From a virus, in the IMG/VR virus record IMGVR_UViG_3300028030_000010, positions 1 through 64,000 of that record: a DNA stretch of 64,000 nucleotides; one strand, given 5' to 3'. Below, piece after piece: positions 24,758 through 63,177 of the stretch; position 1 is the stretch's first letter; each line of letters starts with the position of its first letter. The notes beneath the pieces are model-generated. The model ran no database searches. It was not told the origin of the DNA and worked only from the letters and a program-made list of their open reading frames with translations. The translations under genes and the position numbers were made by a program.

Positions 24758-25194
24758 AAATAGAAATAGTTTCTCTTGATAAATATGTTTTTAATGATTC
24801 TGTAAAACTTTTGCAAAGATTTTATAAAGAATTTAAAGGTGAGCTTATACATAGGATAGAAGCAGAAGAGATTTTAAAAAATCCAAACAACCAAACATAT
24901 GTTTTATTAGTAGAAAATGAAGTAAGAGGATTATATGTTTTTCAACCATTCAATGAAGTGTATATAGTTAAAGCATTTATTTTACACCCATTGGTGAGAA
25001 GAACAAAAACTGGATATAGACTTTGGAAACATATGAAAGAGAAATTAAGCAAAAAACCTGCTATAATAGGAATTATTAGAAACAATAACCTTATTAAATC
25101 TATAATCAAAAAAAGAGGCCATTACATTGGAAGCGGTCTAGACAATGAGGGGCACGCATTAGATTTTTACAACTTATCTTTTAAAGGAATGTAA
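24754..25194 (+). CDS. GNAT-family acetyltransferase
   Basis: Motif A-like FILHPLVRRTKTGYRLW, motif B-like NNNLIKSIIKKRG, 146 aa. Confidence 0.7.
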   Translation: MKIEIVSLDKYVFNDSVKLLQRFYKEFKGELIHRIEAEEILKNPNNQTYVLLVENEVRGLYVFQPFNEVYIVKAFILHPLVRRTKTGYRLWKHMKEKLSKKPAIIGIIRNNNLIKSIIKKRGHYIGSGLDNEGHALDFYNLSFKGM

Positions 25195-26960
25195 TGCAAG
25201 GAACAGCTGGAGTAATTTTATTAAATTCATTAATGCCAAAAGATATCCAATTCGACCCTAAAAAACCAATAACAAAAAAAATATACACTCAAAAACTGTC
25301 GGAGTTTGCTTCAAAATACCCTGAACTCTACAAAGAAAGAATCCATGAAATTACAGCTTTGGCAGAAAAGATGGCATTTTATTTAGGAGCAAATGTTGGT
25401 ACAAAAGACTTAAAAATAGCTGAAAAAGAAGTTGAAAAACATATAAAGGAAATTGAGAAATCATTTAACAAAGCAAAATCTGTAAAAGAAAAAAAGAAAA
25501 TTCTAATGAAAGCTTTTAATGAAGCTCAAGAAACTATAAAAAAGATGGAAGATCCTAACAATGAAATGCTTTTACAAATCAAATCTTCCGCAAGAGGTAA
25601 ACCAGCTCAATTTGCAAGAATGTCTTGGGCACCTTTTTATGCAGTAGACATGGATCAAACCCCAAAGCCTATTTTGATTAAAAACAATTTCGTTAAAGGT
25701 TTAAATCCTCAAGAATATTTTGCTGTTGCAGCACAAGGAAGATTCTCAGCCGTTCAAACAGCAAATGCAACTTCAGAACCTGGAGAGTTTGGAAAAGTAT
25801 TAGTAGCAAACACAGATGACCAGGTCATCACAATGAAAGATTGTGGCACAAAAAATGGAATTTGCATGGATCCTCAAGACCATCATATAGTTGGTAGATT
25901 TGAAGCTGGAACCAATAAACTAATTGATGAAGAGTATTGGAAAAAACTTAAAAATGATAAAAACATTAAATGTGTAAAAGTTAGAAGCCCTATAACATGT
26001 GAAGCACCAAGAGGAATATGTGCGATGTGTTATGGACTAAAGCCTGACGGTAGACTTCCATCTATAGGAGAGGAAGTAGGTATAGTAGCTGCACAAAGCA
26101 TTGGCGAACCTTTAACTCAGATGGTTTTAAGCACTAAACATAGCGTAGGAGCAAAAGAAGAAGATCCTCATAAATTGCAAGGCATGGAAGGTTTTAAAAT
26201 AGTGGTTAATTCTCCTGATAGATTTAAACAAAAAGCCCCAGTAGCACCTAGATCTGGAATCGTTACCAAAATAGAAGCATCACCTCAAGGTGGTTATCTG
26301 ATTTATATAGGTGACGCCAAGAAACCTGTACACGTAGATGCTGGTAAGAAGATTTTGGTTAAAAAGGGGGATTATGTATACAAAGGGCAACAATTATCAG
26401 AAGGAGTCGCATCGGTAAAAGATGTACTACAAACTAGAGGTCTTGGTGCTGCACGTAAACATGAAGCCGATTTATTACATGAAACATTTTTAAATTCTAC
26501 AGGTAGAGACTTGAATAAAAAACATTTTGAAGTTATTGCTAGAGGACATTTATCTTTAGGTAAAGATGAATTAGGAGATATAGCTGATGTAAATGCTGCA
26601 CTAAAAAACTACCCAAGCATAAAAATGAAAAAGATGGTTTCTCCAGAATTAGCTAACGGAAAATATTATTTAGCAGAAAGTGTAGATGTGTTTTTAAAAG
26701 GAACTCCAATTGATGATTTTGTAATAAAAACCTTACAAATGCACAATATACACCAAATATATGTCACAGAACAAAAGCCTCCTGTAAAACCTATTTACAA
26801 AACATTAGTAATGCGCCCTAACTTTAACAGAAATCTATTTGCAAAACTTAACTATAGGTATCTACAAAAAGCTATGTTAGATGAAGTAAAAAGAGGCAAA
26901 GGATTTAAAACAGAAGATATTGTTTCTGGAAGAGAAAAACATACCGCCCATAAATTATAG
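25194..26960 (+). CDS. Phage multi-subunit RNA polymerase, beta-prime C-terminal half
   Basis: SSARGK, NFVKGLNPQEYF, bridge helix QGRFSAVQTANATSEPGEFGKVLV, DCGT, VRSPITC...GICAMCYG zinc site, trigger loop AAQSIGEPLTQMVLSTKH, KHFEVIAR. Confidence 0.93.
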   Translation: MQGTAGVILLNSLMPKDIQFDPKKPITKKIYTQKLSEFASKYPELYKERIHEITALAEKMAFYLGANVGTKDLKIAEKEVEKHIKEIEKSFNKAKSVKEKKKILMKAFNEAQETIKKMEDPNNEMLLQIKSSARGKPAQFARMSWAPFYAVDMDQTPKPILIKNNFVKGLNPQEYFAVAAQGRFSAVQTANATSEPGEFGKVLVANTDDQVITMKDCGTKNGICMDPQDHHIVGRFEAGTNKLIDEEYWKKLKNDKNIKCVKVRSPITCEAPRGICAMCYGLKPDGRLPSIGEEVGIVAAQSIGEPLTQMVLSTKHSVGAKEEDPHKLQGMEGFKIVVNSPDRFKQKAPVAPRSGIVTKIEASPQGGYLIYIGDAKKPVHVDAGKKILVKKGDYVYKGQQLSEGVASVKDVLQTRGLGAARKHEADLLHETFLNSTGRDLNKKHFEVIARGHLSLGKDELGDIADVNAALKNYPSIKMKKMVSPELANGKYYLAESVDVFLKGTPIDDFVIKTLQMHNIHQIYVTEQKPPVKPIYKTLVMRPNFNRNLFAKLNYRYLQKAMLDEVKRGKGFKTEDIVSGREKHTAHKL

Positions 26961-26987
26961 TATAATTCCTAAAAAAAGGATTGAAAA

Positions 26988-27686
26988 ATGGCGGTTTTTT
27001 TCTCTAACATCCCACTCACAAAAGAAACTCCTCAACCAACTATATTAGAATTGTTTGTTGCAAACGATAGTGCTTTCTCTATATTAGATAGAACTAATGA
27101 AGTTTATGAAAACAAATCCAAATTGATTAGAGATTTTGAGTTTGTTAAAAAGCCTTTCAATGAATATCAAATTCATTTGATACCTCCTGTAAAATCTGAT
27201 GGATTGATTTTAGGACTTTTTATAGCAGAAGGGTTTGATTTTGAAATACAAACACAAAAAGAGCCAATTTTTAAAATTGAAAAAAACAAGTTGGAACTTT
27301 CTCTAAAAGAATTTTATGACCCAAATGAAAAAATAAAAAAAGCAACAATTGGCTTGTTCTTTCCTGGTACTGTAATTAGATATAAAATAAATGGAATACC
27401 ATATAAAGATATATTAACTGAAAGAGGATGGACTTCTAAAAGAGAGACTAAATCTGTTAGTGAAGTAGCTAAGAGCTCTAAAAATGAAACCCTAGACGAA
27501 TTAGAAACAAAAGAAGCGATTAAATATGCTGAAGAGTTAATGAAGAAGGGAGAGATTAGTAAAGATTTATTTGAAAGATATAAGATTTTTAGATTAGGGT
27601 ATGATGAAGGCTCAAAAAATGGTAAAATACTTTTTAATGCTTTAACAAAAGATGAAGTTAAACTTTTAAAAGAGAAAGGGTTATAA
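26988..27686 (+). CDS. Hypothetical protein
   Basis: 232 aa; TATAAT at 26961-26966 and AAAAGGA RBS. Confidence 0.7.
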   Translation: MAVFFSNIPLTKETPQPTILELFVANDSAFSILDRTNEVYENKSKLIRDFEFVKKPFNEYQIHLIPPVKSDGLILGLFIAEGFDFEIQTQKEPIFKIEKNKLELSLKEFYDPNEKIKKATIGLFFPGTVIRYKINGIPYKDILTERGWTSKRETKSVSEVAKSSKNETLDELETKEAIKYAEELMKKGEISKDLFERYKIFRLGYDEGSKNGKILFNALTKDEVKLLKEKGL

Positions 27687-29959
27687 TGAAAAGGAAAAAA
27701 TCTGAACAATTCAAAGAAGCGTTAAACCAAACATTTCTATACAAAAAAGCAGATGATGATGTTAATGCTAATATTGCAGAATTGGTTAATGAAGAGGCTT
27801 TTGCTCAGTTGTCAAAAAAATACTCGGATATAATTCCTTATATTATCGGGTTTAAAGAAGTTGAAAAAATAGATGATGGTACTTTATTGTCAAGTGCAGT
27901 AGTAAGCGATGGAGAGAACAGGTTAATTATTCCGATAATATATGCTGGTGGAAAAGTTGATGCCACTTCTTATATTTATAATCCTGATACAGACATAATT
28001 TTTGCCTTAACAAAAAAAGTTATCAACTTTCTTTTTAAAACTAATAAAGATTTAGGTGTAGCAATTGATGGTCAAAATAATAGCACTTTGGATGCTGGTA
28101 ATATTAGAAAGCTATTCATTCCTCCTAAAAATTGGTCTCCAAAGATAGCTAGTAGCAACTTGTTACCATATTTAGTAGAAACTCAACCAATCATTAAAGG
28201 GTTATTGTTAGAAAAAATAGCAACTGATGAAACATTTTCTCAAATATTTAAAATTTTCTACCATGATATGGCTGAAGAGCTAGAAAAAGAAGCACAACAA
28301 TTTAAAGCGTTTATAGAAACTCCTGAAATAGTTGCTTCTTCATTTGAAGAAGTAAGACATAATAACAATGTATTAAACAAAGAAGCAGCTGCTCAGGAAT
28401 ATGCAGAAAATGGAATATACATTCAACATGGAGAAAAATTACCTTCTAAAAGCTTAATTAAAGTTGCCAGTGGAGATGCTCCTATCAAACAAGCATTAAA
28501 TAGTGATGATATAGAAATTGTAGGAAAAAAAAGTGGATGTTTCAAAGTTGTCAACTCTTCTAATTTAACAGTTGATTTTGTGTTAAGTCTCCCTTTATTT
28601 AAGGGAGGGCCTAAAAACTATATTTTAGACTTCTTAGGTTCAGAATATTATAATGATTATTTTGATTTCATAGGAAAAGAAGATGAAAATTGTTTTGCTG
28701 CAAAAACAAACCTAATGGAAGTGTCACCACAAAATCTATTATCGCATTTACCAAATGTAGTAATTGTTTTAATGCAAAATCAAACAAGATTTTTAGGTTT
28801 CATTCCTGTTATTAAGAAAAACCTAACTGAAAACAATATCCAGTTAATTTATAGCAACTCTAATACAATCGTAATAAATGTTTCTTACGGAAGAATAAAA
28901 AGAATAGTTGTTGAAAAAAATTCTGACAAAAATCCTATGGAAGTTGGTAATGTGCTTATAGTAGGAGATAAGAATATAGGTCTATATCTGACAGATAAAG
29001 ACCCAAGAAAATATATGACATACGATGAATATGTTGCAAGAACTAAATACAACACTAATTCAAGCACTGAGATAATTAAAGTTGCATATGACGGTTCTCA
29101 TTATGTTTTCAACAATAGATTATTAACACAAAAAGAATTAGCATCTTTCTTGCTTAAAGAAGGATTTGATAAATACAGCATATATTCACTTTTAAAAGAA
29201 GCTAAATCAAATGGAGAAGCAGAAGCTAAAGCGATTTCTGCAAAAATAGACACATTAGCTCAATTAATTGCAACAACTCTTGGGGAGCTTAAAAAGTTAG
29301 AAGGTAAGGTTGAAGCACTTACTCAAGGAACTCAGTTTGTTGAAAACAATGATTTGTATCAGTATACAGAGCCTATTGCGAGCGAAGACAATTACAATGA
29401 AAGCGAAACAACTCAAGAATCTCCTCAATTAGACGAACAAACAGCAGCAGCTATACAAATGGATGCCATGAATGCACCTCAACAAGATGTTCCAACATTT
29501 TCTATGTATGATGAGGGGAAACAAATAGAAGACATTCCTGAAGAACCAGGTATAGAATATCCTCAAGCTCAAACTGAAGAAGATGCGAGCCAAGAAAATC
29601 AAGGATTAGTAAATGGTATGAATCCTTTGGCTAACCCTGATGTTATTCAAATGTTAGTGTCTTTAAAAGATACTCCAATAATGGATGTAAGCATCTTAAC
29701 ATTGCTTTTAGCTAACAAAAATGTATCGTTAGTTATTCAGGATCAATTAGCAAATATTTTAAATGGTATAAATGGTTTAGGTAAAATAACTTTCAATGTT
29801 CAACTAAATTACACATCTTTAAGTGAGTCAATGGGAGATAACAGATACAAATCTGTGTTAAACAATCTGAAAAGTCTATTTAAAAATATGACAGATTTAT
29901 ATGTTGACTTAGTTCAAAAAAGCGAACAATTTAAAACTCAGGAAGAAGATGAAGAATAA
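27686..29959 (+). CDS. Large putative inner-head protein with K-x-A motifs and an acidic low-complexity linker
   Basis: LYKKAD, PKIAS, LEKIAT, LEKEAQ, LNKEAA, LIKVAS, IIKVAY, LLKEAK. Confidence 0.5.
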   Translation: MKRKKSEQFKEALNQTFLYKKADDDVNANIAELVNEEAFAQLSKKYSDIIPYIIGFKEVEKIDDGTLLSSAVVSDGENRLIIPIIYAGGKVDATSYIYNPDTDIIFALTKKVINFLFKTNKDLGVAIDGQNNSTLDAGNIRKLFIPPKNWSPKIASSNLLPYLVETQPIIKGLLLEKIATDETFSQIFKIFYHDMAEELEKEAQQFKAFIETPEIVASSFEEVRHNNNVLNKEAAAQEYAENGIYIQHGEKLPSKSLIKVASGDAPIKQALNSDDIEIVGKKSGCFKVVNSSNLTVDFVLSLPLFKGGPKNYILDFLGSEYYNDYFDFIGKEDENCFAAKTNLMEVSPQNLLSHLPNVVIVLMQNQTRFLGFIPVIKKNLTENNIQLIYSNSNTIVINVSYGRIKRIVVEKNSDKNPMEVGNVLIVGDKNIGLYLTDKDPRKYMTYDEYVARTKYNTNSSTEIIKVAYDGSHYVFNNRLLTQKELASFLLKEGFDKYSIYSLLKEAKSNGEAEAKAISAKIDTLAQLIATTLGELKKLEGKVEALTQGTQFVENNDLYQYTEPIASEDNYNESETTQESPQLDEQTAAAIQMDAMNAPQQDVPTFSMYDEGKQIEDIPEEPGIEYPQAQTEEDASQENQGLVNGMNPLANPDVIQMLVSLKDTPIMDVSILTLLLANKNVSLVIQDQLANILNGINGLGKITFNVQLNYTSLSESMGDNRYKSVLNNLKSLFKNMTDLYVDLVQKSEQFKTQEEDEE

Positions 29960-30731
29960 CTTCATCTCTTTTTTTGACCCCTATGGAAATATTGTTATTA
30001 AACCTTCTGATAAAGAAGATAAAAAAATATGCACTCTTTTTAGTAAAATATTAAAAGGTGAGCATAAAGCATATTCTAAGTTATCAGATTTACATAAAGA
30101 AGTAATTGATTATAGAATTAATTTTTTTGCAAAAGAAGCAATAGAGAGTTTTCTTTTTTGTGAAGATATTTCTTTATCAGAAATTGCTGAAATCTTGGAA
30201 ACACAGCAAGATGTTATAGAAGAATATGGATATTGGTTTTGCAATGTGGGAAAAATAAAAACATACTTTCAAAAAAAAATATGGATAGAAACACAATTAA
30301 AAGAAATAAAAGAAAAATTAGAGCTTACTGGCTATAGAGATGAAATTCTATTAAATGAACTAAAATCGATTTTATTTAAACGATGGGCTTTGTTGTTAGG
30401 TAAAGAATTTGTGATTTGGAAGTTTGGATTAAAAAAAATAACTGTCTCTCCCTCTAATTTTTTAGAAACAATAGCTAAAGAAGCTTTTTTCCACTACAAA
30501 GAAATATCTTTATCAGAGAAAGATTTAGAGCACAATGAATATGCAAAACTCATAAATAGTTTAGTAAAAACTATAAAAGAAATCAATAGTGTTATGTCAC
30601 AATCGGCTAATAATGATGATATTGTGACTTCAATCAAAGAAGCATTAGAAGTTGTATTAGTTGAAGAAGAACCTAAAAAGCAAATTCCACAATTAGATGG
30701 TGATATTGTTTGCAATTCAAAAATTAATTAA
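29949..30731 (+). CDS. Helical protein with HTH-like segment (possible small terminase or DNA-binding protein)
   Basis: ISLSEIAEILETQQDVIEEY HTH-like pattern. Confidence 0.35.
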   Translation: MKNNFISFFDPYGNIVIKPSDKEDKKICTLFSKILKGEHKAYSKLSDLHKEVIDYRINFFAKEAIESFLFCEDISLSEIAEILETQQDVIEEYGYWFCNVGKIKTYFQKKIWIETQLKEIKEKLELTGYRDEILLNELKSILFKRWALLLGKEFVIWKFGLKKITVSPSNFLETIAKEAFFHYKEISLSEKDLEHNEYAKLINSLVKTIKEINSVMSQSANNDDIVTSIKEALEVVLVEEEPKKQIPQLDGDIVCNSKIN

Positions 30732-30787
30732 TTTTCTTTCAAAAAAATGTTGATTTTTTGTATAATAGCATAAAAAAAGGATGAAAC

Positions 30788-31297
30788 ATGAAACTACACA
30801 ACATTTCAAACGCTTTAATTAACTTTCAAGGTAGACTTATAGAGCCAGGAAGCAAAATTTATGTTAGCGAAGAAATTCTAGTTAAATATCAGCCATTATT
30901 ATATAGATATTATGAAGAAAACAAAGCAGTGATTGAAGATGTAAATGGAAAAAGGTTGTCTCTAGCTGAAGTTAAGAAAATAATCAATGGTTCTATTGTG
31001 CCGGATAAAAAAGTAGAAGAGCCAACTCCAAATTATTTAGATGTTGTTAATGAAGCTAACACAGAAAACGAAACGCCTGCAGAAAACGAAACACCTGCAG
31101 AAAACGAAACACCTGCAGAGAATGAAACGCCTGCAGAGAATGAAACGCCTGCAGAGAATGAAACGCCTGCAGAGAATGAAACACCTGCAGAGAATGAAAC
31201 GCCTGAGGTTAAAACTGAAGAAAACACTGAAGGCAAAGAGTCAGAAGAACCAAAAGTTAAAACAAAAACTACAAAAAGAAGAAATGTTAAAAAATGA
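30788..31297 (+). CDS. Hypothetical protein with ENETPA tandem repeat and basic tail
   Basis: 169 aa; own TATAAT (30761-30766) and RBS. Confidence 0.75.
   Translation: MKLHNISNALINFQGRLIEPGSKIYVSEEILVKYQPLLYRYYEENKAVIEDVNGKRLSLAEVKKIINGSIVPDKKVEEPTPNYLDVVNEANTENETPAENETPAENETPAENETPAENETPAENETPAENETPAENETPEVKTEENTEGKESEEPKVKTKTTKRRNVKK
31064..31204 (+). repeat. 18-bp coding tandem repeat (ENETPA x7 + ENETP)
   Basis: GA[AG]AA[CT]GAAAC[AG]CCTGCA units. Confidence 0.95.
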
Positions 31298-31779
31298 GTT
31301 TAAATTATCCAAAAATAGATATAGATAAAATCAGGGAGTTCTTACAGGACTACCCTGCTTTAAATATCCTAAAAGACAATATTGAACAATTTAAAGATGA
31401 ACTAATAGAGACTACTATTCCTATGGTTGTTCAAGAAGCCATAACGAAAAAACCAGCAATAAAAGGTTATATCAGTAAAATACCTGAAGTTGTTTGGATG
31501 TATGGCATAATTGCAAAATTACTCCAGTCTGAATCTTTTGTTCAATTAAGAAATTCTATATCAGTAGCGGACAACAACACACCTGGAGCTCAGTTGTTTG
31601 GTAAACATGGAGACTACTTACAAGTAAGCAATATGTTTCAACAACAATTTGAAATGATGTTAGATAATTTAGCTAAAAAGTTATGGTATGAAGGGCTATG
31701 GGGAAGCACTAGTTCTAACAGCATAGATGTTGAGCTAGGAGGATTGCTTGTTATTCCTAACGATTGGTGGCTTAGATGA
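31294..31779 (+). CDS. Putative head-tail adaptor (neck) protein
   Basis: IREFLQD...N.L...QFKDELI helical pattern and position upstream of the sheath. Confidence 0.55.
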   Translation: MSLNYPKIDIDKIREFLQDYPALNILKDNIEQFKDELIETTIPMVVQEAITKKPAIKGYISKIPEVVWMYGIIAKLLQSESFVQLRNSISVADNNTPGAQLFGKHGDYLQVSNMFQQQFEMMLDNLAKKLWYEGLWGSTSSNSIDVELGGLLVIPNDWWLR

Positions 31780-32588
31780 TAAAGCTAGTTAAAACAGATG
31801 TTGATTCTGTTGGAATCTTTGTGTACAAAGAACAATTTGAGTTTGATGTTTTTGATGTCTTTAGAAAAGAAGATGATGAGTGGGTAAAAATAGAAACTTT
31901 CAATTTTATTCCTGATGAAGTATTTTATCAAATAAAAGGAAGCAATAAGTTTCATAGAGAACCTGACTCTTATTTGTACAAAACAATTTTTTATAACAAA
32001 AATGAAAAAGTAAAAGAAGCTATACTTCAACCATTTGCATACAATGTTCCTCATTGGCAAAGAGGGATTATTAAAATGAAAAGGTATGAGTTTTTTATAA
32101 AAGCAAAAAAGATAAATGGTAACATGGTGTTAATTTTTAAACAGTTAGATGACAAAATACCCTGTCCTGAATGCTGGGATAGCGATCTTCAATCTAGCAC
32201 AAATTCAAATTGTTCTTTGTGTGGAGGAAGTGGATATATAAAAAAATACAGCAAACCAATATTTACTTGGGGCGGCCCTTATATGAACCAACCATCCGCT
32301 CCTCCTAAAGGAACTATAGATGGACTAGATAAGTTTAATCCTCATTATGGAGCTATAGCTTCAATAACATTATTGCCTGATGTTCCGATAGAAATGTATG
32401 ACCTAATTTATGTTATCAACTCTGGAGAATTAAACATTGTTCACTCGGTTTCTCAAACATACTTTCATAACCAATTAATGAGTCAGAATGTAACATGCGC
32501 TTCTTTACCTTCTGAAACAAGGGAATTTAAAGCAGTAGAAAAGGATATCGCAAAAAAAATAAAGGAAATAAATGGAATTCACCAATAA
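31776..32588 (+). CDS. Putative head-closure/neck protein with zinc finger
   Basis: CPECWD...CSLCGGSGY; position between adaptor and tail terminator. Confidence 0.55.
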   Translation: MIKLVKTDVDSVGIFVYKEQFEFDVFDVFRKEDDEWVKIETFNFIPDEVFYQIKGSNKFHREPDSYLYKTIFYNKNEKVKEAILQPFAYNVPHWQRGIIKMKRYEFFIKAKKINGNMVLIFKQLDDKIPCPECWDSDLQSSTNSNCSLCGGSGYIKKYSKPIFTWGGPYMNQPSAPPKGTIDGLDKFNPHYGAIASITLLPDVPIEMYDLIYVINSGELNIVHSVSQTYFHNQLMSQNVTCASLPSETREFKAVEKDIAKKIKEINGIHQ

Positions 32589-33258: not shown

Positions 33259-33269
33259 AAGGAAAGAAG

Positions 33270-35405: not shown

Positions 35406-35415
35406 AGGATAAGCG

Positions 35416-35748: not shown

Positions 35749-35751
35749 TTA

Positions 35752-37994: not shown

Positions 37995-38003
37995 AGGTAA
38001 AAC

Positions 38004-42109: not shown

Positions 42110-42119
42110 AGGAATATAA

Positions 42120-44919: not shown

Positions 44920-44944
44920 AACTTATAATTGTGTTATATATTTA

Positions 44945-45123: not shown

Positions 45124-45169
45124 AGATTATATTTATACATAAGGAGAAAAAGAGGAGGGTGTCAAGAAA

Positions 45170-45832: not shown

Positions 45833-45894
45833 GTTCTTTCCTTTTTATAGGTTTTTTGTTTCACAATAAATTGTAGCATATAATTTTTCTTTTA

Positions 45895-46908: not shown

Positions 46909-46911
46909 TTA

Positions 46912-47352: not shown

Positions 47353-47422
47353 AGTAAATCCTTTTTTTTATTAATGATACCATAAAAAAACAATAAAAAA
47401 AAGAAAGAAAAAAGAAGAAAAA

Positions 47423-48445: not shown

Positions 48446-48531
48446 GATTGCCCCTTTTTTTTGGATTTTTAAAGCCTTGCGGCAATCAAATTATATTATT
48501 TTTTAATAAAAAAACAAAAAAAAACAAAAAA

Positions 48532-49551
48532 TCACTTAATTTTGTTAGCTTTAACTTTTAATTCAAAAATTGTACCTTGATTGTTTGTTTTTATAAGCCT
48601 TATATTCCCTCCAGAAGTTTTTAAGATAGATAAATTAATATATAAACCATTTCCTCTAATATCAAGCACCTTTGTTTTTGTGGAAATGTTAGGAATGAAA
48701 ATTTTCGGTATAAACTCTTTCGGAATACCTGTTCCATTATCAGAAATAAACATATACACATATGGGTCGCTATATCTAATAAATTTAGCTTCTATCAAGG
48801 TTGAATTGGCTTCTAAAGAATTTTTTATATGATTAATTAATATGTTTAAAAAGTCAGCGTTCGATATGCAATTTTTACAGTCTAAGTTGTATTCTTTAAA
48901 CTTAACATCTATGTTCCATTTAAAATCTTTATGGGAAATTGTCATTATTTTAAACGCAGTCTCTATAACATCATAGAGTGTTTTGTTGCCATTTGAATAC
49001 TTAATCGATTTAAAACCTTTCATTTTGTTTAAAATATTGCTTATTTGTTCTATTGATGATTCCACATAAGTAAAATCTTCTCTAATATCATATAATCTTC
49101 TTAAACATGGGTTTTTATCAGGATCTGGACATTCTACTCGTCTCTGTATATCTTTTATCATTAAATCTATAAAATTCATAATTTTATACATTTTGAAAGT
49201 AATAACTTCTAAGGGAGTGCTTAGTTCGTGAGAAATGTTTTCTGTTATATTCATCAATGATTTATTTGCAGAAATGGAACTAAGATTTAAAACATTTAAT
49301 AAATATTTTTTTCTATAATTAATATAATCGATTAACAAATTACTCACAAAAACAATTAGAAAAACAATTACTACTATGTAAAAATATGAATTGGAAGCCG
49401 ACTTCCAGTCATAATGCATAAAAAAATCTAATTTTAAATGTTTGTTTTGTTGTAAAATATCATTAGATACAAGAATTAAAAATACAATTGCAGAAAAAAA
49501 CACTGAAACAAATAATTTTAAAATAGCATCTTTAATTATTTCTTTAATCAT
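48532..49551 (-). CDS. Membrane sensor histidine kinase
   Basis: Two N-terminal TM helices; H-box ENISHELSTPL; N-box LINHIKNSLEA; G1 ISDNGTGIP; F-box IFIP; G2 RGNGLYI. Confidence 0.93.
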   Translation of the reverse strand: MIKEIIKDAILKLFVSVFFSAIVFLILVSNDILQQNKHLKLDFFMHYDWKSASNSYFYIVVIVFLIVFVSNLLIDYINYRKKYLLNVLNLSSISANKSLMNITENISHELSTPLEVITFKMYKIMNFIDLMIKDIQRRVECPDPDKNPCLRRLYDIREDFTYVESSIEQISNILNKMKGFKSIKYSNGNKTLYDVIETAFKIMTISHKDFKWNIDVKFKEYNLDCKNCISNADFLNILINHIKNSLEANSTLIEAKFIRYSDPYVYMFISDNGTGIPKEFIPKIFIPNISTKTKVLDIRGNGLYINLSILKTSGGNIRLIKTNNQGTIFELKVKANKIK

Positions 49552-50264
49552 TGCTCTTCTTTCTTATTGCTTAAAATATTAGAAATAATTTCTATTAACT
49601 GAGAAGGCGGATATTGATTTTTAAAAATTGTATACTTAAAAATATCCTCTCCTGTTATTTCTTTAAAAGATTCAATTATTTTTTTTGAACTATAAACATA
49701 AGGATTTAAGTTGTTTCCTGTGTAGAAGAAAAATTTTAAGTCAGGGTTATGTTTGTATATTTCCTTAAACACCATAATGCCTTCATATTTAACATTTCCT
49801 TTTTCTGGATGAAACATTACTCCGCCATAAGTTATATCTATAACAGCATAATCTATCTTTATTTTTCCAAAGCGTTTTTCTAAAATTTTAAAAATAAATC
49901 CCGCATAACTAGAATATATTTTTAACACATTTATTTTGTTTTCTAACCCATGAATTTCAATTATATCTTCAATAAGAGAAATTAAGCCTATATTATCATC
50001 TATAATAAGTAAAATTGGTTTATCATTTTTAAGCATTTTTTCATACTCTGCTATTATTTTATCTACTTCCTTTTTTATAGAATCTGGAAGTTGTCTAATG
50101 ATGTCATCTTCTGACATTTTTTCAAAAATTTTTTCACAAGAAGCAATTTCTTTTTTGGAAATATTTTTTATATCCTCATCGTAAGTCGAACGACAAATTT
50201 GTTGCAAAGAACTCCACTTGAGTAGTTTTTTTAAAAAGTTTCTTATTTTTTCTAAAACATCCAT
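49548..50264 (-). CDS. Response regulator receiver-domain protein without recognisable output domain
   Basis: Acidic pocket LLIIDDN, phospho-Asp YAVIDITYG, FYTG, conserved Lys IFKN; N-terminal helical extension; ATGA coupling to the kinase. Confidence 0.85.
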   Translation of the reverse strand: MDVLEKIRNFLKKLLKWSSLQQICRSTYDEDIKNISKKEIASCEKIFEKMSEDDIIRQLPDSIKKEVDKIIAEYEKMLKNDKPILLIIDDNIGLISLIEDIIEIHGLENKINVLKIYSSYAGFIFKILEKRFGKIKIDYAVIDITYGGVMFHPEKGNVKYEGIMVFKEIYKHNPDLKFFFYTGNNLNPYVYSSKKIIESFKEITGEDIFKYTIFKNQYPPSQLIEIISNILSNKKEEQ

Positions 50265-50275
50265 TTCAATTCCTT

Positions 50276-50740
50276 TTATTTTAATATTAATCCTAATTTA
50301 GGTAAGATATTTTCAAAAAAATCTTTACATTGATCGGGAAATATTAGATATAGCACAAAAATGCCAAATACAATCCCTAAAGGAATAACTAATTTACTGA
50401 GAATTAATTGTTTTACTGTATTTAAGGCGCTTTTTATTCTTGTTGAAGTAGATATTTTTTTATTATTTACTTCTTCTATCTTATCTAAAGTAGCTATCTT
50501 ATAATGCAGCCACAAATCTATTGCTTCATGAAGTACATTTTTGATGTTCTTATTATCTCTCATCATATAATCATGCATAATAACAACAAATTCTACTAAT
50601 TCTTTCTCTTCTGGATATTTGCTAGTAATATCAACAATTTTTTTATACATTTCACTTAAATCAGGATCTGAATTTTGTAATTCTTTTTTTAAATCATTAA
50701 CCAGTTTTTCAAGTCTATCTCTCATTTCTTTACAAGTCAT
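50276..50740 (-). CDS. Membrane protein with C-terminal TM helix (lysis operon)
   Basis: LVIPLGIVFGIFVLYLIFP; between holin and receiver. Confidence 0.65.
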   Translation of the reverse strand: MTCKEMRDRLEKLVNDLKKELQNSDPDLSEMYKKIVDITSKYPEEKELVEFVVIMHDYMMRDNKNIKNVLHEAIDLWLHYKIATLDKIEEVNNKKISTSTRIKSALNTVKQLILSKLVIPLGIVFGIFVLYLIFPDQCKDFFENILPKLGLILK

Positions 50741-50753
50741 TTGTTATCCTTTA

Positions 50754-51164
50754 CTAAGAAGATTTACCCTTCAATTCTTTTGCTATTTTCTCTGCACTTC
50801 TTCCTACCACATAACCACCTATACCTATTTTAAGCAAATCCCACATTTGATCTGTTAACTCTAATGTAGGCACATGTAAACCAAATGCCTGAGCATATGG
50901 AACTATTATATAATTATTAGCAATGATAGTTACAAAAGTAAGCATTGTAATTGGTCTCCATGTAGAAGTTAGCCAATGTTCACTTTTAGCTTCAGCTTCT
51001 ACAATTTTTGCCTGCATTTGAAAAGTAGTTTTTTCTAATTCGCTTATTTTAGATAATAATTCTAACTTTTTATTGGGGTCATCGATAGCTTTTCCTGTAA
51101 TAGCTTCTCTTATGTCTTTAAATAAATTACCTACATCACTTAAATTAAAATCAACCAATCCCAT
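50754..51164 (-). CDS. Holin (GTA-type 3TM holin family)
   Basis: EAKSEHWLTSTWRP...WDLLKIGIGGYVVGRSAEK signature. Confidence 0.85.
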   Translation of the reverse strand: MGLVDFNLSDVGNLFKDIREAITGKAIDDPNKKLELLSKISELEKTTFQMQAKIVEAEAKSEHWLTSTWRPITMLTFVTIIANNYIIVPYAQAFGLHVPTLELTDQMWDLLKIGIGGYVVGRSAEKIAKELKGKSS

Positions 51165-51178
51165 TTATTGTTCCTTTT

Positions 51179-51194
51179 TGGTAAGATTATATCA
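51179..51194. promoter_or_regulatory. Overlapping divergent promoters for endolysin (TGGTAAGAT +) and holin operon (TGATATAAT -)
   Basis: Short intergenic region with AAAAGGA RBS on both sides. Confidence 0.6.
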
Positions 51195-51214
51195 AAAAAA
51201 CAAAAGGACAAACA

Positions 51215-51784
51215 ATGAATGAAAAATTTTTAAATGCGTATAAAAACTTAATTGGTGCTGAAGGCGGTTATGTGGATAGACCTGAAGATGCAGGAGGAGA
51301 AACTTATAAAGGTATATCTAGAAAGTTTCATCCTGATTGGGAAGGCTGGACAATTATAGATAAATACAAAGATAAACCAGATTTTAAAAGCAAAATAAAA
51401 AAAGATAAAGAATTGGAAAAACTGGTGCAAAAATTTTATTATGAAAATTACTGGGAAAAATTTAATGGCGACAAACTTCCTTATTTAATCGCTGAAGAAC
51501 TGCTAGAACAAAGCGTAGTTTTAGGGACATGGAAAACAGCTGGAAAAAATCTTCAGAAAGCTCTTAACTTATTAAATTTAAACAATAAATTATTCTCAGA
51601 TCTAATTGAAGATGGAATTGTAGGGCCTAAAACATTAGCAGCAGTAAATAAAGTAAATCAAAGAAGATTGTTGACTGTATTAAATGGATTAGAATTTTGT
51701 AGGTTTAAAGAAAGCATGGAAAAAAGACCTATAAATGAAATATTTAGGGGATGGTTTGATAGGGTAAACTTTATTCTAAAATAA
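51215..51784 (+). CDS. Endolysin, glycoside hydrolase family 108 with C-terminal peptidoglycan-binding segment
   Basis: EGGY..PEDAGGETYKGI catalytic motif; DGIVGPKT; FRGWFDR. Confidence 0.92.
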   Translation: MNEKFLNAYKNLIGAEGGYVDRPEDAGGETYKGISRKFHPDWEGWTIIDKYKDKPDFKSKIKKDKELEKLVQKFYYENYWEKFNGDKLPYLIAEELLEQSVVLGTWKTAGKNLQKALNLLNLNNKLFSDLIEDGIVGPKTLAAVNKVNQRRLLTVLNGLEFCRFKESMEKRPINEIFRGWFDRVNFILK

Positions 51785-54700
51785 CAGGGTCGTTATAATT
51801 TAACTTCCCTTCTCTTATTAGTTTTTTTATTTCAGCTATACTGTGAACTTTTATAGGTTTTTTCTTTGATGGAATAGAAGCTTTATACGCCCCTATAACA
51901 GCATCCTGATCTGTTATCATTAGCAAGTCTTTATGAGTAAGCGTTCCTTGATCAGTGAACAATTGCTTAGAAGCAAGCATTTTTTCTTTTACATCTTTTA
52001 TACCTTCAGGAGTTACTGGTACATGCACAGCAATTTGGTCACCATCATAGTCAGCTGCCAAAGCCCTTTCTACCATTGGAGGTAATGATATAGAGTGACC
52101 AGGAACAAATTTTGGATATGCACCAATAAGGTTATGTTTCCATAAAGATGGAGCCCTGTTGTAGACTACAGGTATTTCTTTACCTAATCTGTGTAAAAGC
52201 TTGATTACTTTTTCATCCTTATTTTTGATCATTTCTTTTATTTGCAATTGAGTGTATCCCATTTTAGCCATTTCTCTACTAATGTGAGGCTCATACATTT
52301 TAAGCCCCATTTCTTCTGGTAACTCTATTTCATCTAATTTTAAATCCCCTCTTGAGGGTGTAATTACAGCCCTTCCTGACATAAATTGATTTTTTCTAAG
52401 CAACTGTTCTTGAACAAATGAGTCTTTCGGTCTATTTCCTCCTAAAACATCTAGTATCCCTTTTACTTGCTTATTTGCAATTGCTGGATTGTTACTAGGA
52501 TACAATCCATACATAGCGCCTATAGCATGTTGCAGAGAAAGTTTTAGATCATTTATTGTTTTTTTAGATAATTTGTTTTGTTTTGCTTCTTTTAAAGTGT
52601 TGTTTAAATTAATTATTTCTTGATAATGTAGATTTAGGTCTGAAACTCCATATTTACCGGTATGGTCTTTGATAATTGGCCTATAAACAGGCGGAATTAC
52701 TGGAACTGTTTTTAATACAGCTACATCTTTTAGAGATAAGTTGTTGTTTTTTAGTTTTTCTAAAAACTTAATGATTTTTAAATTTCTATCTTTTAGTTGC
52801 TCATTTGATGTTTTTTTATTTTCATCTTTCAGTTTTTTTATTTCTTTATTTATATCTATAGCAGATAATTTCTTAATTATACTATCTACACCATCTTCAA
52901 CCATCATTTCTTTTAATTTTTTTTCAGGGATACCTAACAAGAAAGCAATTTCATATGAATAAATTGGGTTAATTAATGGTTCGTTTAATTTTATATGAGC
53001 ATACCTATTACCTAATTCTCCGAAAATAGAAGGATCAAAAAGCCCTCCTTTTCTAGGAGAACCATCAGTTGCGTTTATAGTTTCTGCACTTTTAACTTCT
53101 TTAGGCCCCTTTTTGATAATATCCTTATCTGTTGCGGGAACCAGATTGAAGCTATTTGGGTCATCTTCAACATTTACATTTAGTTGACTTAATAGAGCTT
53201 TAAATTTTTCATAGGCAAAATTTTCAGCCGGTTTAGGTAGTGGTTGTCCTTTTCTAAAGGCTTCAAACCAAGCATCATTTTTTTGGCCTTTTATTTTTCT
53301 AGCCTCTCTTAGTAAATCTTTCGCATTATGTGCTAATAACGCATTTATTTCCATATTTGAAAAAGATGAAGCCGAAGTTTTGCCACCTTTTGCTGGTTGT
53401 TCATTAATATTAACCCTATCAGTAGCAGTAGCACTCATTCCAGATTCAGAATCTTTAAAAAGCTTATAAGTGTATGGTTCTCCTACAAAAACTTTTTGAG
53501 GAAAAGGTTTGCCTGTTTCTGGATTGATTAGCGTTTCATATTGTTCAACCCCATGTTTCTTAGCTTCTTCCTCTGCAAATTTTAAATTATCAGTTAAAGA
53601 ATATTGATCTAGCACATAAGATTTGTCAGTTTTTTTTCCTACTTTACCTAGAGTTGCTTCTATTAATTGCCCAGGATTGATCCTTGAAATAACCCCAGCA
53701 GATGTAACTATAATATGTACTGGTTCACCTTTCTCATTTTTTGGCATTTTATCATCAGGTAAAATCAAAGAAATAGAACCTTTGTTACCATATCTCCCTG
53801 ATAACTTGTCACCTATTTGGGCCTTAGATTTTGTTTTTACAAAAACCCTAATATTGTTCCCTGATTTGTTTACAGACACCACTTTACCATCATGATGATG
53901 AGTCCATGTTTCTAATTTCAATTTGTATGGTTTAAATAAAGTTTTTTCTAAAGAAGTTATAGGTTTATCTTTATTTACGACTAATTTAATCACTAAAGGT
54001 TCATTAAATTTAACGGTTGCGCCTTTTTTTATAACTCCGTGCTCATCATACTTTGATAAATCATATTTAGATAAAGTAAGAGGAAATAAAGCCTTAGCCT
54101 TTTTTAAATCTAATACATCATCTCTATCTATATGAATTTCTTCTTTATACATATGAAGAGAAGTTAAGTTTTTGGCTGCAGTTTCAGATACAATGATTGC
54201 ATCATTTCTGTTGCCAGGCATCGACATCCAAGCTGTTCTTAAATGCACTCCATTTGCAAAATAACCATCTTTAGCATAGTTACTTTCTGCTATCACTTCT
54301 CCTTTTTTTACTCTATCTCCTACCTTAACCTTAGGCTCCATAGATATGTATGTTTTTCTAGCTAATGGAAGGTCTTTTATGTATTTAATTTTATGACCAT
54401 CTATTTGAATGTAATCATCAGTTATTTTTTCAACTTTACCAGAAACAGGACTTTTCACAACTTGGTTTGTTTTTTCTGCTATTTTTTTATAAAAATCTTC
54501 ATTTTTATCTTTTGTTCTAACAATTGGAGCTTCTCTATGTTCTAGCGATAAAGCTTGTTGAGCGTGCTTTTGAGCCATTGTAGCTCTCATGCCATCCATT
54601 GAATTAATAAGAGGCAATGTTTTTGTTGATGAAGTGTGTATATCGCTTGAGCTTTCTATCGCATAATCTACATCTTTTAGAGACTTTACTGTATATTCTT

Positions 54701-56084
54701 TTTCTCCATCTCTAATTGGAATTCCTTCTTTTTTAGCTCTCTCTTTTGATGCAGGATAAGCTACTTTTTTGTTCCACAATTCTTTTATTGTTTTTATTTC
54801 TTTTTTTCCTGTTTTTACATTTAAAACTTCTATTGCAGGCTCTCCATTTTCATCAACATATGCATTATTTGTTACTGCCAATGTAATCCCTGTCTTTGCT
54901 CCTTCCGGAGACACAACTGGGTCAATAAAACCTAATTGAGAAGAATGAATTGCTTTATCATCTTCTGTTAAAGCTCTATCTGTTTCTATTCCACCTTCTC
55001 CTAAAGGAGTTAACAATTTTGTTGCCATATGTGTTTGAATAGGGTTGTATTCTTCTGGCATTCTGGATATCTTTGAAACAGTTAAAAAACTTTTTAGTGT
55101 ATCAGTTAAATAATTGTGATTAAATACATCATTTAACGAATTAAGTGCTGGATTGTTTAATTTTTGTTTTATTTTAAAAATTTCTTTTACTGAATTTTTT
55201 GCAAAATATTCAGGCATAAGATGTATAGCGTTTAACACTTTTCTATTAGCTAAGTTGTTTTTCTGTTTTAAATCTACTTCTTCTCCTCTGTAAGCTTTCA
55301 ATATTTGCTTAATGTTTGCGAAAATCAATTCGGGAGTTAATTTGCTTGTCTCAACTCCAAAGTTTCTTTTGTTAACATCTGGGTCCAATTCCATATGATC
55401 AAAAATATACTTTATCTGTTCTGTTAATGGCTTTTGTTTTATATCATTTGGCAAAGAGTATGATTTTTTTATAAATTTTTCTAAATCAGTTGGATTTGTT
55501 TTATTTATATTGATTTCATATAGCTTTTTCCCTAATTTTCTTTTAATTTCTTCATCAGAAACACCTAACGCTTTCAATATGCTAACAACAGACACATTAG
55601 AATTTCCTATGTTAAAATAAATTACACCAGTATCTGGGTTAAGTGTTATTTTGAATTGTCTGTTTCCTATTGGATTAACTATTGTAACAATTTCTCCATT
55701 TTTTCTTTCGAACAAATAAGTACCAGGTTTTAATCTTTGCTGATTAGGTATAGCATACGAATTCCCATCTATTATGAAAGTTTCTTTAGGTGAGAATTTA
55801 GGAACTTTAGCTATCAAAATGTTTTTTTTACATTCTATTTTTTTATTATCCTTTTTTCTAATTAAACAAACATCTCCTCTAATTTCATTAAATAAACTTT
55901 TGCCTTTTAAAATAGCATTCTTAACATCTTCTAAGTCCACTTCTTTTTGTATTCCTTTAACATTGGAAACTTCTATTTTGTAAAAGTTCCCTTCTATGGG
56001 AAAGGTTTTTTCAACTTCCTTAACAACATTATTTAATATGTGTTTATCAATTTTTTCTGGAGAATCATCTATTTTGTAAAACAT
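51771..56084 (-). CDS. Phage multi-subunit RNA polymerase, beta subunit fused to beta-prime N-terminal half
   Basis: beta: FIIDG, SPEGAKTG, RATMAQKHAQQA, GDKLSGRYGNKG, SRINPGQ, QPAKGG, FSNMEINAL; beta-prime: GLFDPSIFG, VIPPVYRP, SGRAVI, NRAPSL, catalytic AADYDGDQIAVHVP. Confidence 0.95.
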   Translation of the reverse strand: MFYKIDDSPEKIDKHILNNVVKEVEKTFPIEGNFYKIEVSNVKGIQKEVDLEDVKNAILKGKSLFNEIRGDVCLIRKKDNKKIECKKNILIAKVPKFSPKETFIIDGNSYAIPNQQRLKPGTYLFERKNGEIVTIVNPIGNRQFKITLNPDTGVIYFNIGNSNVSVVSILKALGVSDEEIKRKLGKKLYEININKTNPTDLEKFIKKSYSLPNDIKQKPLTEQIKYIFDHMELDPDVNKRNFGVETSKLTPELIFANIKQILKAYRGEEVDLKQKNNLANRKVLNAIHLMPEYFAKNSVKEIFKIKQKLNNPALNSLNDVFNHNYLTDTLKSFLTVSKISRMPEEYNPIQTHMATKLLTPLGEGGIETDRALTEDDKAIHSSQLGFIDPVVSPEGAKTGITLAVTNNAYVDENGEPAIEVLNVKTGKKEIKTIKELWNKKVAYPASKERAKKEGIPIRDGEKEYTVKSLKDVDYAIESSSDIHTSSTKTLPLINSMDGMRATMAQKHAQQALSLEHREAPIVRTKDKNEDFYKKIAEKTNQVVKSPVSGKVEKITDDYIQIDGHKIKYIKDLPLARKTYISMEPKVKVGDRVKKGEVIAESNYAKDGYFANGVHLRTAWMSMPGNRNDAIIVSETAAKNLTSLHMYKEEIHIDRDDVLDLKKAKALFPLTLSKYDLSKYDEHGVIKKGATVKFNEPLVIKLVVNKDKPITSLEKTLFKPYKLKLETWTHHHDGKVVSVNKSGNNIRVFVKTKSKAQIGDKLSGRYGNKGSISLILPDDKMPKNEKGEPVHIIVTSAGVISRINPGQLIEATLGKVGKKTDKSYVLDQYSLTDNLKFAEEEAKKHGVEQYETLINPETGKPFPQKVFVGEPYTYKLFKDSESGMSATATDRVNINEQPAKGGKTSASSFSNMEINALLAHNAKDLLREARKIKGQKNDAWFEAFRKGQPLPKPAENFAYEKFKALLSQLNVNVEDDPNSFNLVPATDKDIIKKGPKEVKSAETINATDGSPRKGGLFDPSIFGELGNRYAHIKLNEPLINPIYSYEIAFLLGIPEKKLKEMMVEDGVDSIIKKLSAIDINKEIKKLKDENKKTSNEQLKDRNLKIIKFLEKLKNNNLSLKDVAVLKTVPVIPPVYRPIIKDHTGKYGVSDLNLHYQEIINLNNTLKEAKQNKLSKKTINDLKLSLQHAIGAMYGLYPSNNPAIANKQVKGILDVLGGNRPKDSFVQEQLLRKNQFMSGRAVITPSRGDLKLDEIELPEEMGLKMYEPHISREMAKMGYTQLQIKEMIKNKDEKVIKLLHRLGKEIPVVYNRAPSLWKHNLIGAYPKFVPGHSISLPPMVERALAADYDGDQIAVHVPVTPEGIKDVKEKMLASKQLFTDQGTLTHKDLLMITDQDAVIGAYKASIPSKKKPIKVHSIAEIKKLIREGKLNYNDPVILE

Positions 56085-63105: not shown

Positions 63106-63177
63106 AAAGGATCCTTTTTTGTCTAATTTTAACATATTTGAATGTTTTTGATATAATTTACAAAAAAAAGAGAGCGC

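What the first reader, a model, noticed from the sequence alone, without database searches (positions are those of the whole stretch)
25194..56084. Two-chain RNA polymerase: beta fused to beta-prime(N), beta-prime(C) 25 kb away, with altered core motifs
Seen: 51771..56084 carries compact beta motifs followed directly by beta-prime regions up to the catalytic loop (AADYDGD instead of NADFDGD), so both double-psi barrels are in one chain; the N-terminal beta-prime Cys zinc domain is absent (IFGELGNRYAHI); beta ED becomes ND and GRHGNKG becomes GRYGNKG. 25194..26960 starts at a TTVGR-like segment (TAGVILLN) and holds the bridge helix, second Zn site and trigger loop. Known: Helicobacter/Wolbachia fuse full rpoB-rpoC, cyanobacteria split beta-prime near this region, phiKZ-like phages split both subunits, and a lineage of tailed phages with cellular-like beta/beta-prime has been described. 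Inference: a distinct, minimised, possibly alpha-independent virion RNAP.
Basis: partly seen in the sequence, partly recalled or inferred. Interest (0 to 1): 0.75.

Follow-up and report, generated by a model that had tools for sequence, protein, structure and literature searches.

The report
Two-chain phage RNA polymerase with sigma
An uncultured hydrothermal-vent phage carries a slimmed-down bacterial-type RNA polymerase built from two chains (beta joined to the first half of beta', and the second half of beta' encoded 25 kb away) plus its own sigma-like factor; hundreds of phage lineages, including cultured Salmonella phage Arash, share this layout, and I found no paper that describes it.

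Summary
ORF 51771-56084 (-), 1437 aa, is a complete compact beta (residues 1-977) running straight into beta' up to about E. coli residue 551. ORF 25194-26960 (+), 588 aa, resumes at about residue 571 and carries the bridge helix, second Zn site, trigger loop and C-terminal region.

It is not unique. A complete 161-kb relative, Salmonella phage Arash (gp206 + gp216) and Vibrio phages D69/D148/D181 have the same two chains. A junction-spanning query finds at least 150 fused cluster representatives.

Trees rooted on cellular sequences put nearly all two-chain forms in one clade, nested among single-chain beta-beta' fusions of about 2050 aa. The split is therefore a secondary fission.

The first zinc site is missing in every phage-type member sampled. 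E813N (NRND) marks a well-supported subclade, and the Asp triad is invariant.

No alpha, omega or second polymerase was detected in the complete relative. Virion packaging is suggested by Arash proteomics and by conserved placement among particle genes, but it is not shown.

This scan has met the same layout on other genomes.

The parts
53154..56084 (-). Beta module of the fused chain (residues 1-977 of P0001): Rpb2_3 and Rpb2_6 domains, GRYGNKG (K760/K768 = Ec K1065/K1073), NRND (N627/D628 = Ec E813/D814)
   Evidence: Pfam; translation; alignment to E. coli rpoB, whose last residue 1342 aligns to residue 977
51771..53153 (-). Beta' N-terminal module of the same chain (residues 978-1437 plus stop): no Zn1 cysteines, clamp helices at about 1137-1201, catalytic loop AADYDGD at 52038-52058; ends at about Ec beta' residue 551
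   Evidence: Pfam Rpb1_1 and Rpb1_2; translation; alignment to E. coli rpoC
25194..26960 (+). Beta' C-terminal chain (P0002, 588 aa): starts at the TTVGR-equivalent (about Ec 571) and carries the bridge helix, second Zn site (C217, C269, C276, C279), a trigger loop without SI3, and the C-terminal region
   Evidence: Pfam Rpb1_5; bacterial beta' chains in the PDB at E 1e-38; E. coli mapping; about 70 stand-alone homologs of 570-615 aa
17769..18410 (-). Sigma-70-family-like factor (P0122, 213 aa; the open frame reaches 18452)
   Evidence: Ortholog (64% id) of the G001 ORF hit by Arash sigma gp10. The profile hits the same G002 locus as gp10. For an AF2 model with pLDDT 78.8, all of the 50 best Foldseek PDB matches listed are sigma factors. 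Predicted contact with the clamp helices scored 0.66 against a best control of 0.00
57491..59314 (-). Portal protein homolog, co-directional with and upstream of the fused polymerase gene
   Evidence: 27% identity over 93% of the query to Arash gp204 portal, E 1e-56; the same portal-then-polymerase order is found in Arash and Vibrio phage D69
9322..10260 (+). Major capsid protein homolog (context)
   Evidence: tblastn to Arash gp226, 31% identity, E 4e-44
6850..8472 (+). Terminase large subunit (context)
   Evidence: phrog_675 at E 4.5e-51; Arash gp1 at E 3e-60
27686..30731 (+). Two ORFs downstream of beta'C that weakly resemble Arash gp218 (particle protein) and gp219, which also lie downstream of Arash beta'C
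   Evidence: tblastn E 3e-5 and 1e-4; Arash annotation

Best explanation
These two genes encode the catalytic core of a phage-owned, bacterial-type RNA polymerase made of two chains. Chain 1 is beta fused to beta' up to just past the Mg-binding loop. Chain 2 is the rest of beta'. The covalent beta-beta' link probably replaces the tethering normally supplied by the alpha dimer and omega, neither of which was detected; this step is inferred. Promoter recognition is probably provided by a phage sigma-like protein encoded 7 kb from chain 2, which is predicted to dock on the clamp helices of chain 1; this is inferred, with model support. The enzyme belongs to a very large clade of roughly 160-190 kb tailed phages (Arash-like). 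In that clade the ancestral form is a single beta-beta' chain lacking the first zinc site, and the two-chain form arose once by fission near Ec beta' 551-571, after which the second gene drifted away. The genes sit among particle genes, and the Arash orthologs are abundant in purified particles. The polymerase and its sigma are therefore probably made late, packaged and injected to start transcription independently of the host enzyme. That last step is the least certain.
For: Shown: domain content and motifs. The three catalytic Asp, both beta Lys and R764 are among 61 invariant columns in an alignment of 33 two-chain clade members. All four second-Zn cysteines are kept in this protein. The same two chains occur in a complete relative with terminal repeats at 71-77% identity, in Arash and in Vibrio phages. 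About 70 stand-alone beta'C proteins exist, several on the same contigs as fused partners, judged by matching contig lengths. All 150 best representatives at 50% clustering span the beta/beta' junction in one stretch. In the trees, 55 of 57 two-chain forms make one clade (support 0.84, single-chain sister 0.99). With a beta-only alignment rooted on unfused cellular beta, support is 0.95. There is one polymerase per genome, and no alpha, omega or T7-type match. The complex model scored 0.66 (runs 0.69/0.66/0.65) against a best control of 0.00; that mark was reached by 58 of 80 solved complexes and 2 of 110 mismatched pairs, the runs agree in at least 60% of contacts, and partner pLDDT is at least 71. 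Virion evidence: Arash gp206 has the highest spectral count, and gp216 and sigma gp10 are also found in sucrose-gradient particles. The portal-then-polymerase order and the beta'C-then-gp218-like order are conserved.
Against: There is no biochemical or expression data for this phage. The Arash preparation yielded 116 of 272 proteins, including reductases and ligases, and its authors say carry-over is possible. The Pfam Sigma70_r2 search missed the sigma-like gene, so an equally divergent alpha or omega could also have been missed, and host alpha could be borrowed. The sigma-clamp model may reflect memory of solved holoenzymes. N458A, E813N and trigger-loop R933S touch residues important in E. 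coli, so activity could be altered. The trees are FastTree only, and the key node has support 0.84. No conserved promoter motif was found.
Confidence: 0.7

Rival explanations
1. It is a functional two-chain polymerase but is not packaged. It is made after infection from host-transcribed genes and serves only middle or late transcription, like a phiKZ non-virion enzyme or T7 RNA polymerase.
For: The Arash particle proteome is very inclusive, so polymerase peptides could be carry-over. No direct data exist for this phage. One sigma-70-like promoter match with an extended -10 lies at 63129-63157.
Against: The polymerase genes lie inside co-directional, tightly packed particle-gene arrays beside the portal, which is not the typical place for an early gene. 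Arash gp206 has more spectra than the major capsid protein. Sigma-70-type promoter matches are fewer than in shuffles (58 against 74).
Confidence: 0.22
2. The sigma-like protein redirects the host polymerase (as T4 gp55 or SPO1 gp28 do), and the phage enzyme uses some other specificity factor or none.
For: Phage-encoded sigmas that reprogram host core enzyme are common (established knowledge; PMC7824862). The complex model cannot tell phage clamp helices from host ones.
Against: The sigma-like gene co-occurs with the phage polymerase in all four genomes examined (window, G001, G002, Arash). It is found in Arash particles together with the polymerase. The model docks it on the phage clamp helices with controls at 0.00.
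Confidence: 0.2
3. The enzyme is catalytically altered or repurposed. Because of N458A, E813N, H1070Y and R933S it may have relaxed sugar selectivity, priming activity or activity on another template, rather than being an ordinary transcriptase.
For: The substituted positions contact the substrate or metal in E. coli (established knowledge). NRND is fixed in a 28-member subclade (support 1.0), and the first residue of the catalytic loop varies (N/A/G/S/T), mostly alongside F-to-Y.
Against: The Asp triad, both Lys, the bridge helix, trigger-loop His and second Zn site are kept. The closest relative (72% id) has NADYDGD, so N-to-A is a recent neutral-looking change. A sigma partner fits ordinary transcription.
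Confidence: 0.1
4. It is an artefact: a mis-assembled or cellular contaminant contig, or a broken gene.
For: The contig is a fragment, with about 47% estimated completeness.
Against: A complete relative with terminal repeats has the same genes, spacing and orientation. Terminase, capsid and portal genes are on the contig. Both frames are open, and dozens of orthologs have the same lengths.
Confidence: 0.01

Closest known systems
Salmonella phage Arash gp206 + gp216 with sigma gp10 (OQ632216; PMC10585845), and Vibrio phages D69/D148/D181
   Same: Same beta-beta'N fusion and separate beta'C chain (29-36% identity). Same portal-then-polymerase order. A sigma-like gene is present. Terminase, capsid, portal and a particle protein are shared.
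   Different: The second gene is 1-5 kb downstream on the same strand in those phages, whereas here it is 25 kb away on the other strand. Those phages infect Gammaproteobacteria; this one comes from a hydrothermal-vent sample with 30% G+C. Their records and the Arash paper call the genes plain beta and beta' or hypothetical, and do not mention the fusion.
Single-chain beta-beta' polymerases of related uncultured phages (about 2000-2150 aa, e.g. G002 = IMGVR_UViG_3300034684_000299)
   Same: Same family (about 30% identity), same beta/beta' junction, same loss of the first Zn site, and a sigma-like gene present.
   Different: Beta' is not split, and they mostly keep NADFDGD, ED and GRHGNKG. They are basal to the two-chain clade in the trees.
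phiKZ/AR9-type jumbo-phage multisubunit polymerases (PMC7598289, PMC7824862)
   Same: Phage-encoded two-barrel enzymes without alpha or omega. Beta' is cut into N and C parts, and a virion-packaged form exists.
   Different: There beta is also split (4-5 polypeptides), two paralogous sets exist, no sigma is encoded, and the sequences are far more divergent (21-24% identity here). Here beta is whole and fused, there is one set, and a sigma-like gene is present.
mReC phages of Weinheimer & Aylward 2020 (PMC7481178)
   Same: Uncultured tailed phages with cellular-like beta and beta'.
   Different: Every mReC row I read in their table lists beta and beta' as separate proteins, each of 800 aa or more, with NADxDGD required. 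The paper mentions a beta/beta' fusion only for crAssphage. This protein is fused, its beta' is cut, and it reads AADYDGD.
Helicobacter/Wolbachia rpoB-rpoC fusions and the cyanobacterial/plastid rpoC1-rpoC2 split (established knowledge)
   Same: The beta C-terminus is joined to the beta' N-terminus, and beta' is cut between the catalytic loop and the bridge helix.
   Different: The cellular enzymes keep alpha, omega and the first Zn site, and show either the fusion or the split, not both. The exact cyanobacterial cut site was not compared here.

Membership tests
Bacterial-type multisubunit RNA polymerase core (beta/beta') | Beta' double-psi barrel with the DxDGD aspartate triad | tested here: met
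   AADYDGD at 1343-1349. D1345, D1347 and D1349 are invariant in 33 relatives, and the triad is kept in all 108 catalytic-loop-bearing family proteins tabulated.
Bacterial-type multisubunit RNA polymerase core (beta/beta') | Beta double-psi barrel with the two active-site lysines | tested here: met
   K760 and K768 align to Ec K1065 and K1073 and are invariant. Rpb2_6 matches at E 1e-38.
Bacterial-type multisubunit RNA polymerase core (beta/beta') | Bridge helix, trigger loop and second Zn site in beta' | tested here: met
   Rpb1_5 matches. Ec 769-805 aligns to P0002 172-208. C217, C269, C276 and C279 are kept, as is H936; M932L and R933S are changed.
Bacterial-type multisubunit RNA polymerase core (beta/beta') | N-terminal beta' zinc-binding domain (Ec C70, C72, C85, C88) | tested here: not met
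   Ec 64-96 has no counterpart. It is absent in all phage-type family members and present only in three cellular-type fusions.
Bacterial-type multisubunit RNA polymerase core (beta/beta') | Alpha dimer and omega encoded alongside | tested here: not met
   PF01000, PF01193 and PF01192 give no match at E<=1 in the contig, in a 100%-complete relative or in a 91%-complete relative, while the controls ring in 14 of 14 genomes. Very divergent forms or use of host alpha are not excluded.
Arash-like phage polymerase (fused beta-beta'N + beta'C + sigma) | Beta fused in frame to beta'N, ending after the catalytic loop | tested here: met
   85-90% coverage alignments to Arash gp206 and the Vibrio D69 ORF. 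It clusters within the two-chain clade.
Arash-like phage polymerase (fused beta-beta'N + beta'C + sigma) | Separate beta'C gene of about 580-610 aa | tested here: met
   96% coverage of Arash gp216, E 1e-62; stand-alone homologs exist.
Arash-like phage polymerase (fused beta-beta'N + beta'C + sigma) | Phage sigma-like gene | tested here: met
   Window 17769-18410. There is a transitive sequence link to Arash gp10 through G001 and G002, and the predicted fold matches sigma factors.
Arash-like phage polymerase (fused beta-beta'N + beta'C + sigma) | Fused gene lies downstream of the portal gene | tested here: met
phiKZ/AR9-type jumbo-phage polymerases | Beta split into N and C polypeptides | tested here: not met
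   Beta is one continuous module of 977 residues.
phiKZ/AR9-type jumbo-phage polymerases | Two paralogous sets (virion and non-virion) | tested here: not met
   There is a single Rpb2_6 and a single Rpb1_2 locus in the complete relative.
mReC phage polymerases (PMC7481178) | Separate beta and beta' proteins, each of at least 800 aa, with beta' carrying NADxDGD | tested here: not met
   Here beta is fused, beta' is cut, and the motif is AADYDGD.
Cyanobacterial/plastid-type beta' split | Cut at the same beta' position | not tested
   The cut here maps to Ec 551-571. No cyanobacterial sequence was aligned.
crAss-like / YonO single-chain two-barrel polymerases | Extreme divergence, with no match to cellular beta/beta' profiles | tested here: not met
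   Pfam and PDB matches to bacterial beta and beta' are strong.

The most novel reading that the evidence does not exclude
The Arash-like clade carries a self-sufficient minimal bacterial-type transcription machine: one or two catalytic chains plus a sigma, with no alpha, omega or first zinc site. It is packaged in the particle and injected, so that the whole infection runs without the host polymerase and is insensitive to rifampicin. The rifampicin pocket differs at Q513R, D516E, H526A, R529L and S531T. The family also records a natural series from one chain to two chains to three chains.
Probability: 0.35. Interest if true: 0.75.

Novelty: new variant of a known kind. Interest (0 to 1): 0.55.

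Why it matters
Bacterial RNA polymerase normally needs an alpha dimer, and usually omega, to assemble, and sigma to start. A natural enzyme that appears to keep sigma dependence while dispensing with alpha, omega and the first zinc site would be the smallest sigma-using cellular-type polymerase known to me. It would consist of only one or two chains, about 2025 residues in total. That makes it a convenient object for studying assembly, clamp and sigma mechanics and antibiotic binding, and a possible orthogonal transcription tool. It also adds a third, very widespread style of phage-encoded multisubunit polymerase beside the phiKZ type and the crAss type. Its fused, split and re-split forms bear on how the large subunits were joined or divided during evolution. 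Cultured members (Arash and the Vibrio phages) make all of this testable.

Tried and rejected
PHROGs and Pfam on 35 further ORFs of the window gave almost nothing: terminase and one HATPase_c domain.

The 1289-aa ORF next to the portal has no match in phage records.

Pfam Sigma70_r2 found no sigma in six-frame searches of three genomes, although a sigma-like gene is there. This shows the limits of that test.

A profile of the sigma-like family against PDB sequences gave only a marginal SigA hit, at E 0.04.

The search for a T7-type polymerase was uninformative, because its controls did not ring.

I looked for a phage promoter motif. No k-mer of 9-12 bases was over-represented, and sigma-70-type and terminator scans were at or below shuffle level.

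No tRNA genes were found.

Sequencing runs: one DNA holder, probably the source sample, and no RNA holder listed.

Literature searches for a described beta-beta' fusion in phages found only crAss-type, P23-45 tape-measure-fused and AR9 HD-domain cases.

The mReC supplement does not list the related contig ids.

A heterodimer model of beta'N with beta'C was not run.

Full report
WHAT IS THERE

The window is the first 64 kb of a 76,440-bp IMG/VR virus contig with an estimated completeness of about 47%. Its G+C content is about 30%. The DNA occurs in a hydrothermal-vent metagenome, which is probably the source sample.

ORF 51771-56084 on the minus strand (1437 aa, P0001) and ORF 25194-26960 on the plus strand (588 aa, P0002) are both open.

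- On P0001, Pfam finds Rpb2 domains 3 and 6 followed by Rpb1 domains 1 and 2.
- On P0002, Pfam finds Rpb1 domain 5.
- PHROGs gives its best matches to two families of unknown function whose profiles are 1191 and 1216 positions long.
- The phiKZ-type families match much more weakly.

I aligned both proteins to E. coli rpoB and rpoC, using family members as bridges. The results:

- **Beta module.** It is residues 1-977 and reaches the last residue of E. coli beta. It lacks Ec 2-34, 227-344, 938-1049 and 1126-1179; the second and third of these correspond to the lineage-specific insertions SI1 and SI2 (my recollection of E. coli numbering).
- **Fusion.** Beta' follows directly after beta.
- **Missing beta' segments.** Ec 64-96 (the first zinc site), Ec 140-177, the SI3 insertion (Ec 946-1132) and the C-terminal tail (Ec 1357-1407).
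- **The cut.** Chain 1 ends at about Ec 551 and chain 2 starts at about Ec 571.
- **Kept.** The Asp triad, both active-site lysines, the four cysteines of the second zinc site and trigger-loop His936.
- **Changed.** N458A, E813N, H1070Y, M932L and R933S.
- **Rifampicin pocket.** Q513R, D516E, H526A, R529L, S531T and I572T. This suggests insensitivity to rifampicin, but that is an inference.

IT IS NOT A ONE-OFF

- A complete 161,461-bp relative with direct terminal repeats (G001, IMGVR_UViG_3300026382_000002) has both chains at 71-77% identity, with the same spacing and relative orientation.
- Cultured Salmonella phage Arash has a 1525-aa fused protein (gp206). Its separate beta'C (gp216) starts about 4.8 kb downstream of the end of gp206.
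- Vibrio phages D69, D148 and D181 have the same pair. In two of them the fused gene is interrupted by a homing endonuclease.
- Among the 117 best database relatives of at least 1000 aa, 58 are beta + beta'N, 50 are complete single-chain beta-beta' fusions of about 2000-2150 aa (longer when they carry inteins), and 9 are beta alone.
- About 70 stand-alone beta'C proteins of 570-615 aa exist. Several come from contigs of the same length as contigs that carry fused partners.
- A 251-residue query spanning the beta/beta' junction was run against 1.84 billion representatives clustered at 50% identity. It gave 1043 hits at E<=0.001, and all 150 listed hits cross the junction in one stretch.

DIRECTION OF CHANGE

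I built a FastTree tree of 107 proteins (1394 columns), rooted on three cellular-type fusions that still carry the first zinc site. In this tree 55 of 57 two-chain proteins form one clade (support 0.84). A single-chain sister joins them at 0.99, and the single-chain forms are basal.

A beta-only tree rooted on unfused cellular beta sequences gives the same clade at 0.95. Four beta-only proteins nest inside it, which points to a further fission in one sub-lineage.

The motif changes follow this tree:

- The first zinc site is lost in every phage-type member.
- NRND in place of the ED motif is fixed in a 28-member subclade (support 1.0).
- The first residue of the catalytic loop is free to vary (N/A/G/S/T).
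- The closest relative, at 72% identity, reads NADYDGD.

These are therefore lineage traits under selection, not damage.

PARTNERS

In the contig, the complete relative and a 91%-complete single-chain relative I found no alpha (PF01000, PF01193) and no omega (PF01192). There is no second beta or beta' catalytic domain either. Controls rang in 14 of 14 genomes.

A note from this scan on another genome said that such phages carry their own sigma, so I tested that here.

- Arash gp10 matches Pfam Sigma70_r3.
- It hits an ORF in G001 (E 8e-5) and one in G002.
- The window ortholog of the G001 ORF is 17769-18410 on the minus strand (64% identity).
- A profile of this ORF and eight relatives hits the same G002 locus as gp10 (E 5.5e-10).
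- Its AlphaFold model has mean pLDDT 78.8.
- All of the 50 best Foldseek PDB matches listed are sigma-70-family chains, with E down to 1.6e-5. TM-scores are low, consistent with the domains being splayed.

A complex model of this protein with residues 1000-1437 of chain 1 scored 0.66 (runs 0.69, 0.66 and 0.65) against a best control of 0.00.

- That mark was reached by 58 of 80 solved complexes and by 2 of 110 mismatched pairs.
- The runs agree in at least 60% of contacts, and partner pLDDT is at least 71.
- The interface is residues 1137-1201 of chain 1, which align to the E. coli clamp helices (the sigma region 2 docking site, by established knowledge), against sigma residues 26-43.

Sigma-core complexes are solved, so this shows likeness rather than proof of binding.

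IS IT A VIRION ENZYME?

The Arash paper reports gp206 as the most-detected protein in sucrose-gradient particles (3516 spectra). gp216 (1210) and sigma gp10 (467) were also found. However, 116 of 272 proteins were detected, and the authors allow for carry-over.

The genomic context fits late expression and packaging:

- The fused gene follows the portal homolog in a tight co-directional array, here and in Arash and D69.
- Beta'C is followed by weak homologs of Arash gp218 and gp219, as in Arash.
- Terminase, major capsid and another particle protein are shared with Arash.

With only one polymerase per genome, an injected enzyme would allow host-independent transcription. I rate packaging as probable, not shown.

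COMPARISON WITH THE LITERATURE

- phiKZ/AR9-type enzymes lack alpha and omega, but they split beta as well, come in two sets and have no sigma (PMC7598289, PMC7824862).
- The mReC phages are defined by separate beta and beta' proteins, and the rows of their table that I read list them that way (PMC7481178).
- The Arash paper does not mention the fusion.
- Several full-text searches found no description of this architecture.
- Other agents of this scan reached the same view on other genomes.

VERDICT

The thing is real and functional-looking. It is a member of a very large clade whose polymerase architecture appears undescribed, and it is not peculiar to this contig.

Noticed in passing
window 48532-49551 (-): A 339-aa ORF with a C-terminal HATPase_c domain (histidine kinase/GyrB/Hsp90-type ATPase, E 1e-8), in a phage that otherwise has almost no Pfam matches.
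   Followed up: no
window 59326-63195 (-): A 1289-aa ORF immediately upstream of the portal gene, with no Pfam, PHROG or phage-record match. It is a candidate large particle or injected protein.
   Followed up: partly
relatives P0070, P0074, P0078, P0081, P0086-P0088, P0090; Vibrio phages D148/D181 (OZ196545, OZ196140): Polymerase genes of this family are frequent targets of inteins (PF14528, PF14890) and homing endonucleases. This may have driven the fissions and the relocation of beta'C.
   Followed up: no
relatives P0103, P0106-P0108 (beta only, about 1062-1080 aa): Beta-only proteins nest inside the two-chain clade next to P0073 (support 1.0). This suggests a second fission that gave a three-chain enzyme in one sub-lineage.
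   Followed up: partly
G002 = IMGVR_UViG_3300034684_000299, about 37.7-45.4 kb: The polymerase matches lie within a single uninterrupted open frame of 2613 aa, longer than the usual 2000-2150 aa single-chain form. The extra part was not examined.
   Followed up: no
window, whole: Nearly all genes are beyond PHROGs and Pfam detection, and there are no tRNA genes. Only terminase, capsid, portal, polymerase and a few particle proteins link it to Arash, at 24-31% identity. It is a very deep-branching lineage from a hydrothermal-vent sample, and the host is unknown.
   Followed up: partly
window 26988-27686 (+): The ORF directly after beta'C has only a weak MCM_C winged-helix match (E 0.013). Arash has a DNA helicase (gp217) at the equivalent place.
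   Followed up: no
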